Positions 5,466-48,727 of a stretch of DNA of 64,000 nucleotides are shown here, one piece after another. The stretch lies in NCBI RefSeq assembly GCF_009914755.1, contig NC_060942.1; one strand, 5' to 3'. Under the pieces are notes generated by a model. That model did not search any database, was not told the DNA's origin, and saw only the letters and a list, made by a program, of their open reading frames with translations. The stretch is from the human T2T-CHM13v2.0 reference genome, Homo sapiens. A program made the translations under genes and the position numbers. Each line of letters starts with the position of its first letter. Within the stretch, counting starts at the first letter, position 1.

Positions 5466-8400
5466 TCCCTGTCACTTTCAGGTACACCAATCAGACGTAG
5501 ATTTGGTCTTTTCACACAGTCCCATATTTCTTGGAGGCTTTGTTCATTTCCTTTTATTCTTTTTTCTCTTAACTTCCCTTCTCACTTCATTTCATTCATT
5601 TCATCTTCCATCACTGATACCCTTTCTTCCAGTTGATCGCATCGGCTCCTGAGGCTTCTGCATTGTTCACGTAGTTCTTGAGTCTTGGCTTTCAGCTCCA
5701 TCAGCTCCTTTAAGCACGTCTCTGTATTGGTTATTCTAGTTATACATTCATCTAAATTTTTTTCAAAGTTTTCAACTTCTTTGCCTTTGGTTTGAATTTC
5801 CTCCTGTAGCTCAGAGTAGTTTGATCATCTGAATCCTTCTCTCAACTCATCAAAGTCATTCTCTGTCCAGCTTTGTTCCGTTGCTGGTGAGGAGCTGCGT
5901 TCCTTTGGAGGAGGAGAGGTGCTCTGCTTTTTAGAGTTTCCAAGAACCAAGTTGGAAAACACTCTGCAGGATATTATCCAGGAGAACTTCCCCAATCTAG
6001 CAAGGCAGGCCAACATTCAGATTCAGGAAATACAGAGAACGCCACAAAGATACTCCTCGAGAAGAGCAACTCCAAGACACATAATTGTCAGATTCACCAA
6101 AGTTGAAATGAAGGAAAAAATGTTAAGGGCAGCCAGAGAGAAAGGTTGGGTTACCCACAAAGGGAAGCCCATCAGACTAACAGCGGATCTCTTGGCAGAA
6201 ACTCTACAAGCCAGAAGAGAGTGGGGGCCAATATTCAACATTCTTAAAGAAAAGAATTTTCAACCCAGAATTTCATATCCAGCCAAACTAAGCTTCATAA
6301 GTGAAGGAGAAATAAAATCCTTTACAGACAAGCAAATGCTGAGAGATTTTCTCACCACCAGACTTGCCCTAAAAGAGCTCCTGAAGGAAGCACTAAACAT
6401 GGAAAGGAACAACTGGTACCAGCTGCTGCAAAATCATGCCAAAATGTAAAGACCATCAAGGCTAGGAAGAAACTGCATCAACTAACGAGCAAAATAACCA
6501 GCTAACATCATAATGACAGGAACAAATTCACACATAACAATATTAACTTTAAATGTAAATGGACTAAATGCTCCAATTAAAAGACACAGACTGGCAAATT
6601 GGATAAAGAGTCAAGACCCATCAGTGTGCTGTTTTCAGGAAACCCATCTCACATGCAGAGACACACATAGGCTCAAAATAAAAGGATGGAGGAAGATCTA
6701 CCAAGCAAATGGAGAACAAAAAAAGGCAGAGGTTGCAATCCTAGTCTCTGATAAAACAGACTTTAAACCAACAAAGATCAAAAGAGACAAATAAGGCCAT
6801 TACATAATGGTAAAGGTATCAATTCAACAAGAAGAGCTAACTATCCTAAATATATATGCACCCAATACAGGAGCACCCAGATTCATAAAGCAAGTCCTGA
6901 GTGACCTACAAAGAGACTTAGACTCCCACAGAATAATAATGGGAGACTTTAACAACCCACTGTCAACATTAGACAGATCAACGAGACAGAAAGTTAACAA
7001 GGATACCCAGGAATTGAACTCAGCTCTGCACCAAGCGGACCTAATAGACATCTACAGAACTCTCCACCCCAAATCAACAGAATATACATTTTTTTCAGCA
7101 CCACACCACACCTATTCCAAAATTGACCACATAGTTGGAAGTAAAGCTCTCCTCAGCAAATGTAAAAGATCAGAAATTATAACAAACTGTCTCTCAGACC
7201 ACAGTGCAATCAAACTAGAACTCAGAATTAAGAAACTCACTCAAAACCACTCAACTACATGGAAACTGAACAACCTGCTCCTGAATGACTACTGGGTACA
7301 TAACGAAATGAAGGCAGAAATAAAGATGTTCTTTGAAACTAATGAGAACAAAGACACAACATACCAGAATCTCTGGGACACATTCAAAGCAGTGTGTAGA
7401 GGGAAATTTATAGCACTAAATGCCCACAAGAGAAAACAGGAAAGATCCAAAATTTACACCCTAACATCCCAATTAAAAGAACTAGAAAAGCAAGAGCAAA
7501 CACATTCAAAAGCTAGCAGAAGACTAGAAATAACTAAAATCAGAGCAGAATTGAAGGAAATAGAGACACAAAAAACCCTTCAAAAAATTAATGAATCCAG
7601 GAGCTGGTTTTTTGAAAGGATCAACAAAATTGATAGACCGCTAGCAAGACTAATAAAGAAGAAAAGAGAGAAGAATCAAATAGATGCAATAAAAAATGAT
7701 CAAGGGGATATCACCACCAATCCCACAGAAATACAAACTACCCTCAGAGACTACTACAAACACCTCTACGCAAATAAACTAGAAAATCTAGAAGAAATGG
7801 ATAAATTCCTCGACACATACACCCTCCCAAGACTAAACCAGGAAGAAGTTGAATCTCTGAATAGACCAATAACAGGATCTGAAATTGTGGCAATAATCAA
7901 TAGCTTACCAACCAAAAAGAGTCCAGGACCAGACGGATTCACAGCCGAATTCTACCAGAGATACAAGGAGGAACTGGTACCATTCCTTCTGAAACTATTC
8001 CAATCAATAGAAAAAGAAGGAATCCTCCCTAACTCATTTTATGAGGCCAGCATCACCCTGATACCAAAGCCAGGCAGAGACACAACCAAAAAAGAGAATT
8101 TTAGACCAATATCCTTGATGAACATTGCTGCAAAAATCCTCAATAAAATACTGGCAAACCGAATCCAGCAGCACATCAAAAAGCTTATCCACCATGATCA
8201 AGTGGGCTTCATCCCTGGGATGCAAGGCTGGTTCAATATATACAAATCAATAAATGTAATCCAGCATGTAAACAGAACCAAAGACAAAAACCGCACGATT
8301 ATCTCAATAGATGCAGAACAGGCCTTTGACAAAATTCAACAAGGCTTCATGCTAAAAACTCTCAATAAATTAGGTATTGATGGGACGTATCTCAAAATAA

Positions 8401-10579
8401 TAAGAGCTATCTATGACAAACCCACAGCCAATACCATACTGAATGGGCAAAAACTGGAAGCATTCCCTCTGAAAACTGGCACAAGACAGGGATGCCCTCT
8501 CTCACCACTCCTATTCAACATAGTGTTGGAAGTTCTGGCCAGGGCAATTAGGCAGGAGAAGGAAATAAAGGGTATTCAATTTGGAAAAGAGGAAGTCAAA
8601 TTGTCCCTGTTTGCAGATGAAATGATTGTATATTTAGAAAACTCATCGACTCAGCCCAAAATCTCCTTAAGCTGATAAGCAACTTCAGCAAAGTCTCAGG
8701 ATACAAAATCAATGTGCAAAAATCACAAGCATTCTTATACACCAGTAACAGACAAACAGAGAGCCAAATCATGAGTGAACTCCCATTCACAATTGCTTCA
8801 AAGAGAATAAAATACCTAGGAATCCAACTTACAAGGGATGTGAAGGACCTCTTCAAGGAGAACTACAAACCACTGCTCAATGAAATAAAAGAGGATACAA
8901 AGAAATGGAAGAACATTCCATGCTCATGGGTAGGAAGAATCAATATTGTGAAAATGGCCGTACTGCCCAAGGTAATTTATAGATTCAATGCCATTCCCAT
9001 CAACCTACCAATGACTGTCTTCACAGAATTGGAAAAAACTACTTTAAAGTTCATATGGAACCAAAAAAGAGCCCACATTGCCAAGTCAGTCCTAAGCCAA
9101 AAGAACAAAGCTGGAGGCATCATGCTACCTGACTTCAAAGTATACTACAAGGCTGCAGTAACCAAAACAGCATGGTACTGGTACCAAAACAGAGATATAG
9201 ATCAATGGAACAGAACAGAGCCCTCAGAAATAACGCCACATATCTACAACTATCTGATCTTTGACAAATCTGAGAAAAACAAGCAATGGGGAAAGGATTC
9301 CCTATTTAATAAATGGTGCTGGGAAAACTGGCTAGCCATATGTAGAAAGCTGAAGCTGGATCCCTTCCTTACACCTTATACAAAAATTAATTCAAGATGG
9401 ATTAAAGACTTAAACGTTAGACCTAAAACCATAAAAACCCTAGAAGAAAACCTAGGCAATACCATTCAGGACATAGGCATGGGCAAGGACTTCATGTCGA
9501 AAACACCAAAAGCAATGGCAACAAAAGCCAAAATTGACAAATGGGATCTAATTAAACTAAAGAGCTTCTGCACAGCAAAAGAAACTACCATCAGAGTGAA
9601 CAGGCAACCTACAAAATGGGAGAAAATTTTCACAACCTACTCATCTGACAAAGGGCTAATATCCAGAATCTACAATGAACTCAAACAAATTTACAAGAAA
9701 AAAACAAACAACCCCATCAAAAAGTGGGCAAAGGACATGAACAGACACTTCTCAAAAGAAGACATTTATGCAGCCAAAAAACACATGAAAAAATGCTCAC
9801 CATCACTGGCCATCAGAGAGATGCAAATCAAAACCACAATGAGATACCATCTCACACCAGTTAGAATGGCAATCATTAAAAAGTCAGGAAACAACAGGTG
9901 CTGGAGAGGATGTGGAGAAATAGGAACACTTTTACACTGTTGGTGGGACTGTAAACTAGTTCAACCATTGTGGAGGTCAGTGTGGCGATTCCTCAGAGAT
10001 CTAGAACTAGAAATACCATTTGACCCAGCAATCCCATTACTGGGTATATACCCAAAGGACTATAAATCATTCTGCTATAAAGACACATGCACACGTATGT
10101 TTATTGCGGCACTATTCAAAATAGCAAAGACTTGGAACCAACCCAAATGTCCAACAATGATAGACTGGATTAAGAAAATGTGGCACATATACACCATGGA
10201 ATACTATGCAGCCATAAAAAATGATGAGTTCATGTCCTTTGTAGGGATATGGATGAAATTGGAAATCATCATTCTCAATAAACTATCTCAAGAACAAAAA
10301 ACCAAGCACCGCATATTCTCACTCATAGGTGGGAATTGAACAATGAGAACACGTGGACACAGGAAGGGGAACATCACACTCTGGGGACTGTTGTGGAGTG
10401 GGGGGAGAGGGGAGGGATAGCTTTAGGAGATATACCTAATGCTAAATGACGAGTTAATGGGTGCAGCACACCAGCATGGCACATGTATACATATGTAACT
10501 AACCTGCACATTGTGCACATGTACCCTAAAACTTAAAGTATAATAATAATAAAATAAAATAAAAATAAAAATAAAAAAA
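5466..10579 (+). mobile_element. L1PA3-like LINE-1, 5'-truncated with 5' inversion
   Basis: Perfect 17-bp TSD AGAAGTGCAGCTATTTC (5449-5465 / 10580-10596). Inverted ORF1 5' part at 5466-5942; forward ORF1-ORF2-3'UTR-polyA from 5944. 3'UTR diagnostics GCTAAATGACGAG and CACACTCTGGGGACTG. Confidence 0.95.
6513..10339 (+). pseudogene. L1 ORF2 (endonuclease/reverse transcriptase), inactivated
   Basis: [17 protein letters not shown] start. Premature TAA at 6792-6794, catalytic FADD changed to FADE (~8610-8621), 1-nt frameshift at ~8640; otherwise colinear to ...IFSLIGGN. Confidence 0.92.
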
Positions 10580-48600: not shown

Positions 48601-48727
48601 GAGATATAACTAATGTAAATGATGAGTTAATGGGTGCAACACACCAACATGGCACATGTATACATATGTAACAAACCTGCACATTGTGCACATGTACCCT
48701 AGAACTTAAAGTATTATTTAAAAAAAA
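42628..48727 (+). mobile_element. Full-length L1PA5/L1PA6-like LINE-1 with disrupted ORFs
   Basis: Starts GGAGGTTCCAAAATGGCC; full 5'UTR, ORF1 (ATG 43618, several stops), ORF2 (ATG 44706, stops and frameshifts), 3'UTR ...ACCCTAGAACTTAAAG. Degenerate TSD attaaaaatgattat / attaaaaacatcat. Confidence 0.93.

What the first reader, a model, noticed from the sequence alone, without database searches (positions are those of the whole stretch)
5466..48727. Three neighbouring L1s of different subfamilies share private mutations in a patchwork: candidate local gene-conversion network
Seen: L1-A (5466-10579, PA3-like), L1-B (27152-33006, PA4-like) and L1-C (42628-48727, PA5-like) each have their own TSD and subfamily-specific 3'UTR, so they inserted independently. 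Yet they share non-CpG changes away from the recalled L1PA consensus. All three: GDFN-N-PL for GDFN-T-PL (AACAACCCAC at 6951, ~30740, ~45144). A+B: CKR-S-EI, ND-Q-GDI, IQQ-G-FML, PTAN-T-IL, EDT-K-KW, PMT-V-F, YKA-A-VT, CCAGC-A-ATCCC. B+C: CCAACTAATATC (KPTNIK, two changes), GAGCCAACCATC (QEEPT, two changes), TG-V-PR, KL-I-QN, ADL-W-AE. A+C: ACCAGACTTGCC (TTRLAL, two changes) and DAE-Q-AF. Inference: these three pairwise patterns cannot fit one tree, so the simplest reading is repeated short-tract non-allelic gene conversion among copies 14-38 kb apart. TSD pairs still flank their own elements, so there is no net crossover. Conversion between nearby repeats is known in principle; this density and three-way pattern at one locus is what stands out.
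Basis: partly seen in the sequence, partly recalled or inferred. Interest (0 to 1): 0.8.

Follow-up and report, generated by a model that had tools for sequence, protein, structure and literature searches.

The report
Short sequence swaps between neighbouring L1s
Three old L1 retrotransposon copies in one human intron mostly share ordinary family variants, but the middle copy has exchanged a few short stretches of sequence with its neighbours, a clean local example of a known repair process.

Summary
Exhaustive whole-genome string counts show several are ordinary or recurrent L1 states: CCAGC-A-ATCCC 2,517 copies, EDT-K-KW 535, YKA-A-VT 228, CKR-S-EI 141, GDFN-N-PL 67.

Two signals survive. 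B and C share a block of at most 267 bp with 2 differences where 22.5 are expected. It contains two double changes (KPTNIK, QEEPT) found in no other copy in the genome. A and B share two blocks, of at most 119 and 310 bp, with 1 and 4 differences (6.8 and 17.8 expected). These carry rare variant pairs found together only in A and B, plus one chr10 copy for one pair.

A–C sharing is no more than chance: TTRLAL is a hypermutable pair lying in a stretch that B lacks, and DAE-Q-AF recurs in 11 unlinked copies.

Verdict: non-allelic gene conversion between B and C is strongly supported and between A and B is probable. It is a two-edge chain through the inverted middle copy B, not a three-way network. 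This is a new example of a known process and of moderate interest.

The parts
5463..10579 (+). L1 copy A (young-type). The 5' piece 5463-5942 is inverted and the body 5943-10579 is in sense. A 17-bp target-site duplication lies at 5449-5465 and 10580-10596.
   Evidence: family painting
27150..33007 (-). L1 copy B (intermediate type). The body 27150-31134 is on the minus strand and the inverted 5' piece is 31135-33007. B lacks C element positions 1881-2127. A 13-bp target-site duplication lies at 27139-27151 and 33007-33019.
42628..48727 (+). L1 copy C (old-type, full length). Only a 9-bp offset flank match was found, so its target-site duplication is uncertain.
30697..30963 (-). B side of the B-C exchanged block (alignment columns 2333-2599, maximal extent). 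The minimal extent, set by the shared rare states, is 30821-30922.
   Evidence: genome-unique strings
44925..45191 (+). C side of the B-C exchanged block. It holds KPTNIK (44966, 44969), QEEPT (45031, 45035) and TG-V-PR (45067).
8320..8438 (+). A side of A-B block T1 (columns 3928-4046). It holds IQQ-G-FML (8343/8344) and PTAN-T-IL (8434).
29257..29375 (-). B side of A-B block T1
8746..9055 (+). A side of A-B block T2 (columns 4355-4664). It holds the rare pair at 8995 and 9017 (PMT-V-F).
28640..28949 (-). B side of A-B block T2

Best explanation
A, B and C are three separate, long-dead L1 insertions of successively older type (A young, B intermediate, C old) in an intron of KIAA1328. Most states that two of them share are inherited from their source lineages or are recurrent mutations at mutable sites. 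In addition, the middle copy B lies in inverted orientation to both neighbours and has exchanged short stretches with each of them by non-allelic (interlocus) gene conversion. In that process a break in one copy is repaired using the neighbouring copy 14-21 kb away as template, without crossover. Three blocks are involved: one of at most 267 bp with C, and two of at most 119 bp and at most 310 bp with A. What is shown: the blocks, their low divergence, and the genome-wide rarity of the shared variant combinations. What is inferred: the repair mechanism, the absence of crossover, and the timing. The direction of transfer is unresolved. The blocks differ by only about 0.7-1.3%, against 5.7-8.4% overall, so the events are much younger than the insertions.
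For: B-C: 2 differences in 267 columns against 22.5 expected. In the scan statistic, the best 300-column window has 4 differences against 25.2 expected, and 0 of 2000 permutations reach it. Within the block only 2 of 12 variable sites separate B from C, against 71.5% overall (binomial P 1.3e-4). Five states shared by B and C (columns 2374, 2377, 2439, 2443, 2475) occur in 0 of 44 unlinked copies, including 3 older-type copies. The 41-mer with the KPTNIK double change has 2 exact copies in the genome (B and C) among 4,632 within 2 mismatches, and 26 copies carry one change only. Independent occurrence would predict about 0.02 doubles. The QEEPT 30-mer also has 2 exact copies, with 69 single-change copies. 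A-B: T1 has 1 difference against 6.8 expected, T2 has 4 against 17.8, and the stretch between them has 17 against 17.6. The scan gives P 0.0055 to 0.016. The T1 variants have 11 and 31 exact copies genome-wide with no unlinked copy in both lists, and the 9 unlinked carriers of the first lack the second. The T2 pair occurs in B, in A, and in one chr10 copy, against 6,752 copies of the standard string. About 0.34 doubles are expected genome-wide. None of B's 16 best unlinked matches over this region carries 3951G, 4042C, 4626G or 4764G. Stand-in null: 39 unlinked copies share on average 0.5-0.9 rare variants with a local copy and the young-type ones at most 3, against 9 for A-B and 8 for B-C. 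A and B each keep their own target-site duplication.
Against: My first fragment test, on runs of consecutive agreeing sites, found nothing (P 0.38-0.59). Block boundaries were chosen after seeing the data, so the pointwise Poisson values are optimistic. After allowing for six window sizes, the A-B scan is only marginal. Columns 4355-4458 are also identical between A and C, so part of T2's low divergence is shared by all three copies. Over the wider 1-kb stretch, A is not B's best match in the genome: chr9 1682 bits, A 1674, chr15 1673. One unlinked chr10 copy carries the T2 pair. The reference pool is biased towards young copies: a state with 2,517 genome copies is essentially absent from it, so 'rare in the pool' needed the genome counts, and those were not made for every site. 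C's target-site duplication is not clear. No orthologous ape sequence or second human assembly could be examined.
Confidence: 0.72

Rival explanations
1. One reading: a three-way network of many very short conversion tracts among all of A, B and C, including A-C, with isolated shared sites (ND-Q-GDI, DAE-Q-AF, TTRLAL, KL-I-QN, GDFN-N-PL) being micro-tracts.
For: A-B shares more isolated rare sites than stand-ins do (9 against at most 3 for young-type stand-ins). ND-Q-GDI has only 5 exact copies in A's context. All three copies are identical over columns 2533-2599 and all carry GDFN-N-PL, which has 67 copies genome-wide. A paper read in passages (PMC1920257) cites cell-culture conversion tracts between LINEs as short as 13 bp.
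Against: A-C has only 2 rare shared sites, in line with stand-ins, and no significant low-divergence window (best P 0.016-0.03 across six window sizes). Around TTRLAL, A and C differ at 9 of 61 columns and the identical block is 12 columns. The same double change recurs in at least 5 unlinked C-type copies and each single change is frequent. DAE-Q-AF, KL-I-QN and CKR-S-EI recur in 11, 19 and 139 unlinked copies. A few single coincidences are expected among the 126-219 sites at which each copy stands alone.
Confidence: 0.12
2. No exchange at all: every shared state is either inherited from L1 source lineages, including rare sub-lineages or chimeric source elements, or is a parallel mutation.
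For: This is true for much of the list: 2,517, 535, 228, 141 and 67 genome copies. 35 of 44 sites where B and C agree against A are carried by older-type unlinked copies. A's retained old states match unlinked copies L087 and L092. The run test was negative.
Against: Ancestry cannot remove the private post-insertion differences, yet B-C divergence falls from 8.4% to 0.75% inside the block. No other genome copy has the KPTNIK or QEEPT doubles, so a source sub-lineage would have left exactly two offspring, 10 kb apart. Parallel mutation predicts about 0.02 such doubles genome-wide.
Confidence: 0.08
3. Assembly or polishing artefact: reads from one L1 were used to correct the other, copying variants between them.
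For: It is raised only because repeats are where such errors occur.
Against: The copies are only 91-94% identical overall, and the blocks are embedded in well-diverged L1 sequence with unique flanks. That long reads would therefore place them unambiguously is inference from general knowledge. It was not tested here.
Confidence: 0.03

Closest known systems
Non-allelic gene conversion between neighbouring Alu elements (Aleshin and Zhi 2010, as summarised in Fawcett and Innan 2019, PMC6598467; passages read; the original paper is not held)
   Same: Post-insertion exchange between independent copies of a dispersed repeat. It shows up as reduced divergence and transferred mutations, and depends on distance and identity.
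   Different: Here the repeats are L1s of different subfamily type at 91-94% identity and 14-21 kb apart. The passage read speaks of elevated rates within less than 10 kb for Alu. This is a single locus, not a genome-wide statistic.
Repair of a break in a chromosomal LINE by gene conversion from endogenous LINEs in mouse cells (Tremblay, Jasin and Chartrand 2000, cited in PMC1920257; passage read; the original paper is not held)
   Same: L1 copies serve as conversion donors for each other. The tracts are short.
   Different: That work was experimental, somatic and in mouse. Here the events are germline, fixed in the reference genome, and between neighbours.
Interlocus gene conversion in human segmental duplications (for example PMC3790853 and PMC4467073; search listing and abstract starts only)
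   Same: The same signature: short patches of shared variants between paralogous sequences.
   Different: Segmental duplications share ancestry by duplication and have high identity. These L1s are independent insertions with their own target-site duplications.
Intrachromosomal gene conversion inside an L1 insertion (locus NCLI34 in Sen et al. 2007, PMC1920257; passage read)
   Same: A published case in which part of a human L1 was replaced from another L1 on the same chromosome.
   Different: That case replaced a 377-bp middle segment of a non-classical insertion. Here the patches are reciprocal-looking and lie between three classical insertions.

Membership tests
Non-allelic (interlocus) gene conversion between dispersed repeats | The copies arose independently and are not duplicates of each other | tested here: met
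   A has a 17-bp and B a 13-bp target-site duplication flanking the whole element. The truncation and inversion structures differ. For C only a 9-bp offset match was found, so this is inconclusive for C alone.
Non-allelic (interlocus) gene conversion between dispersed repeats | Local collapse of divergence between the two copies relative to the rest of the elements | tested here: met
   B-C 2 against 22.5 expected, with 0 of 2000 permutations reaching the scan minimum. A-B T2 4 against 17.8 (scan P 0.0055-0.016). T1 1 against 6.8. The result is strong for B-C and moderate for A-B.
Non-allelic (interlocus) gene conversion between dispersed repeats | Shared derived variants inside the tract that other family members lack | tested here: met
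   The KPTNIK and QEEPT doubles occur only in B and C genome-wide. The T1 pair occurs only in A and B. The T2 pair occurs in A, B and one chr10 copy.
Non-allelic (interlocus) gene conversion between dispersed repeats | Tract length in the known range and no exchange of flanks (no crossover) | tested here: met
   Maximal blocks are 267, 119 and 310 bp. The target-site duplications of A and B still pair with their own elements. That this length range is typical is established knowledge and was not tested here.
Non-allelic (interlocus) gene conversion between dispersed repeats | Before-and-after states seen in orthologous copies of other species or in polymorphism | not testable with these tools
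Ordinary L1 subfamily or source-lineage variants | The shared state is common among unlinked copies genome-wide | tested here: met
   Met for CCAGC-A-ATCCC (2,517), EDT-K-KW (535), YKA-A-VT (228), CKR-S-EI (141), GDFN-N-PL (67), and for 35 of 44 sites where B and C agree against A. Not met for KPTNIK, QEEPT, or the T1 and T2 pairs.
5'-inverted (twin-priming type) L1 insertion | An inverted 5' segment abuts the sense 3' body, and the whole is flanked by one target-site duplication | tested here: met
   A: 5463-5942 inverted next to 5943-10579. B: 31135-33007 inverted next to 27150-31134, with 246 bp missing at the junction. Each is flanked by one duplication. The name 'twin priming' is recalled, and is used in PMC1920257.

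The most novel reading that the evidence does not exclude
The inverted middle copy B is a local hub of repeated exchange. At least three separate short conversion events with two different neighbours of different subfamily type occurred at only 91-94% identity and 14-21 kb distance, while the directly oriented pair A-C shows none. If this generalises, inverted neighbouring L1s may trade short tracts routinely. That would blur L1 subfamily calls and age estimates, and would mark intronic sites of recurrent break repair.
Probability: 0.2. Interest if true: 0.55.

Novelty: new member of a known kind. Interest (0 to 1): 0.4.

Why it matters
The locus shows, using exhaustive genome-wide counts, that old L1 copies of different subfamily type can still exchange short tracts with neighbours long after insertion. 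Such patches can mislead subfamily assignment and dating of individual copies. They also show that these intronic repeats have served as repair templates for one another. The process itself is established for Alu elements, segmental duplications and experimentally broken LINEs, so this is a well-documented instance and not a new mechanism. The work also gives a practical warning: sharing judged against a remembered consensus overcalls private variants, because at least five of the listed items have 67 to 2,517 copies genome-wide.

Tried and rejected
1. A run-length (GENECONV-like) permutation on consecutive agreeing sites was negative. It proved insensitive, because private mutations of the third copy interrupt runs. 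I replaced it with a pairwise scan.

2. A long (about 1 kb) early B-to-A tract over columns 3846-4882 was suggested by 0 of 64 AP|BC sites there (Fisher P 4e-5). I rejected it. A's closest relatives, and the unlinked copies L087 and L092, show the same retained old states. In addition 3952G, 4511G and 4684A are polymorphic family states.

3. A rare source sub-lineage for the A/B haplotype was not found. The 20 best unlinked matches to A 8890-9165 carry at most one of four variants. The 9 unlinked 'GG' copies carry none of the other rare ones. The chr10 copy has only two. L065's apparent matches were alignment artefacts beyond its L1 end.

4. I assumed at first that B+C sharing was merely ancestral. 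Searches overturned this for the KPTNIK-QEEPT block. It holds for 35 of 44 sites.

5. A family panel built from B's best matches failed: 8 of 10 are young-type copies closer to A than to B.

7. Direction of transfer could not be resolved, because no family-diagnostic site inside any block separates the partners.

8. No PRDM9-like 13-mer occurs in the three elements.

Aleshin and Zhi 2010 and Tremblay et al. 2000 are not held.
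Full report
**What is there.**
The window lies in an intron of KIAA1328 (hub annotation). 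It holds three long L1 copies.
- A spans 5463-10579 on the plus strand.
- B spans 27150-33007 with its body on the minus strand.
- C spans 42628-48727, is full length, and is on the plus strand.

A and B each have an inverted 5' piece (5463-5942 and 31135-33007). B also lacks C element positions 1881-2127 at the junction. A is flanked by a 17-bp target-site duplication and B by a 13-bp one. For C I found only a 9-bp offset match. B is therefore inverted relative to both neighbours, while A and C are in direct orientation.

**Checking the observation.**
TTRLAL is missing from B only because B lacks that stretch.

A three-way alignment gives 4,308 identical columns, 225 where A and B agree against C, 146 where B and C agree against A, 135 where A and C agree against B, and 8 where all three differ. 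Pairwise identities are A-B 93.96%, A-C 92.14% and B-C 91.39%.

With three sequences, each pair-shared state is equally a change in the third copy. The three patterns therefore do not by themselves contradict a tree. Everything depends on polarity and on how rare each state is.

**Reference copies and their bias.**
The window's own genome could be searched. I collected several sets of unlinked copies:
- 29 full-length and 6 partial copies resembling A;
- 20 short pieces;
- 10 copies chosen by rare strings;
- 16 copies matching B over about 1 kb;
- 10 copies matching B over 4 kb.

The searches score only the 40 best of thousands of candidates, so low-divergence young copies dominate. Eight of B's 10 "best matches" are closer to A (about 96%) than to B (93-94%). 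Only L015, L085 and L090 are of older type.

Because of this bias I relied on exhaustive exact-string counts over the whole genome wherever a conclusion depended on rarity.

**Much of the list is ordinary.**

|---|---|---|
| CCAGC-A-ATCCC | 2,517 | 38 |
| EDT-K-KW | 535 | 29 |
| YKA-A-VT | 228 | 30 |
| CKR-S-EI | 141 | 72 |
| GDFN-N-PL | 67 | 53 |
| KL-I-QN | 21 of 1,198 within one mismatch | 75 |
| DAE-Q-AF | 13 | 68 |

Of the 44 sites from column 2160 onward where B and C agree against A and its relatives, 35 carry the B/C state in at least one of the three older-type unlinked copies. I also painted the three copies at 71 family-diagnostic sites. C is old-type, B is intermediate and A is young-type. 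A's retained old states coincide with those of unlinked copies L087 and L092. That is a simple succession of source lineages with no block mosaic.

I had at first read columns 3846-4882 as a long B-to-A tract, because 0 of 64 AP|BC sites fall there (Fisher P 4e-5). This painting, and the panel sub-structure, explain that pattern as a sub-lineage feature, so I withdraw that reading.

**The B-C block.**
I had assumed that B+C sharing was ancestral, and the genome counts overturned this. The 41-mer that B and C share around KPTNIK has 2 exact copies in the genome, B and C themselves. Allowing two mismatches gives 4,632 copies. Of the 100 places listed, 67 read exactly as A does, 22 carry one of the two changes alone, and 4 carry the other alone. 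If the two changes arose independently, about 0.02 copies with both would be expected. The QEEPT 30-mer likewise has 2 exact copies, with 69 single-change copies.

These four changes and TG-V-PR lie within 102 columns (2374-2475), and none of 44 unlinked copies carries any of them. Between columns 2333 and 2599, B and C differ at 2 sites where 22.5 are expected. In a scan over all positions, the best 300-column window has 4 differences against 25.2 expected, and 0 of 2000 permutations reach that value. Inside the block only 2 of 12 variable sites separate B from C, against 71.5% overall.

Shared ancestry cannot erase post-insertion private differences. This block therefore records an exchange after both copies were in place.

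**The A-B blocks.**
A shares 9 pool-rare states with B. The 39 unlinked stand-ins share 0.74 with B on average, and the young-type ones at most 3. One of the 9 (5639A) is a family state, as shown above.

Two clusters stand out.
- **T1 (columns 3928-4046).** It has 1 difference against 6.8 expected. It holds IQQ-G-FML (11 exact genome copies) and PTAN-T-IL (31 copies). No unlinked copy is in both lists, and the 9 unlinked carriers of the first lack the second.
- **T2 (columns 4355-4664).** It has 4 differences against 17.8 expected. It holds a pair of changes found together in B, in A, and in one chr10 copy. The standard string has 6,752 copies, and about 0.34 doubles are expected genome-wide.

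The 308 columns between T1 and T2 have 17 differences against 17.6 expected. None of B's 16 best unlinked matches over this region carries 3951G, 4042C, 4626G or 4764G.

Several points count against the A-B case:
- The scan statistic is only P 0.0055 to 0.016 before allowing for six window sizes.
- Columns 4355-4458 are identical in all three copies.
- Over the wider 1 kb, A ranks third as a match to B, behind a chr9 copy.
- The block limits were set after seeing the data.

I rate A-B exchange as probable, not proven.

**The A-C edge.**
A and C share 2 pool-rare states, in line with stand-ins. No window of low divergence survives correction.

At TTRLAL the block where A and C are identical is 12 columns long, and the two copies differ at 9 of the surrounding 61 columns. 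A's 38-mer is unique, but 113 copies carry one of the two changes. In C-type sequence context, the double change recurs in at least 5 unlinked copies among the places listed. These are mutable positions in a short palindrome. DAE-Q-AF recurs in 11 unlinked copies.

A few single coincidences are expected, so I see no evidence for A-C exchange. GDFN-N-PL is shared by all three and lies inside the B-C block. A's copy of it sits in a 105-column stretch identical to B. With a single informative variant, this cannot be told apart from chance.

**Mechanism and timing.**
The best reading is non-allelic gene conversion: a break in one L1 repaired from the neighbouring L1 14-21 kb away (distances), without crossover. 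The target-site duplications of A and B still pair with their own elements.

Divergence inside the blocks is 0.75% for B-C, and 0.8% and 1.3% for A-B. This is far below the copies' overall divergence, so the events are much younger than the insertions.

Direction is unresolved, because no family-diagnostic site inside a block separates the partners. No PRDM9-like 13-mer occurs in the elements. Both supported exchanges involve the inverted copy B and the direct pair A-C shows none. With three copies this is only an anecdote.

**Comparison with what is known.**
Fawcett and Innan 2019 (PMC6598467; passages read) summarise non-allelic conversion between transposable-element copies, mainly Alu. They cite Aleshin and Zhi 2010 for elevated rates within less than 10 kb. 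Sen et al. 2007 (PMC1920257; passages read) describe an intrachromosomal conversion inside a human L1. They also cite Tremblay et al. 2000 for repair of a broken LINE from endogenous LINEs, with tracts as short as 13 bp. Neither original paper is held.

Three full-text searches turned up no genome-wide study of exchange between neighbouring L1s. The library lacks most subscription journals, so I do not claim that none exists. From memory, and not checked here, conversion of older L1s by younger ones has been reported in surveys of human-specific L1 insertions.

**Verdict.**
It is a chain through B and not a three-way network. At least five of the listed "private" variants have 67 to 2,517 copies genome-wide. 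This is a new, well-documented instance of a known process.

Noticed in passing
window 5463-5942 and 31135-33007: Both A and B are 5'-inverted L1 insertions. B also lost 246 bp at the inversion junction (C element positions 1881-2127). An unlinked chr10 copy fetched for comparison (L059) has the same kind of inversion.
   Followed up: partly
window 6359-6366 (A) and 44552-44559 (C): The 8-base palindrome CAGGCCTG in ORF2 is unusually mutable. Single G-to-A or C-to-T changes at two of its positions occur in 113 copies in A-type context, and the double change recurs in at least 5 unlinked C-type copies.
   Followed up: partly
window 10030 (A), 27670 (B): The state A at alignment column 5639 has 2,517 exact-string copies genome-wide. 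Yet it is absent from C, from the 3 older-type unlinked copies, and from the 36 younger-type ones sampled. So this site does not follow a simple single-lineage succession of L1 subfamilies.
   Followed up: no
window 8621-8649 (A) against 29074-29045 (B): There is a tight cluster of differences between the two A-B blocks: five A-private changes including a 1-base deletion, plus B-private changes, within 30 columns. The cause is unknown.
   Followed up: no
window 33009-35441, 3703-4554, 38471-40314, 26030-26657, 87-1082: Further, much older L1 fragments (65-90% identity to C) lie around and directly beside B, so the intron is an L1-rich patch. None covers the exchanged blocks at high identity.
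   Followed up: no
whole-genome searches: A method caveat. For an old, heavily mutated copy such as B, similarity searches return young low-divergence copies of a different subfamily type as 'best relatives'. A panel built that way misjudges which states are rare.
   Followed up: yes
window 15190-15297: According to the hub's annotation, an exon of alternative KIAA1328 transcripts lies between A and B. An inversion by crossover between these inverted L1s would flip it. No sign of such an event was seen, and it was not examined further.
   Followed up: no
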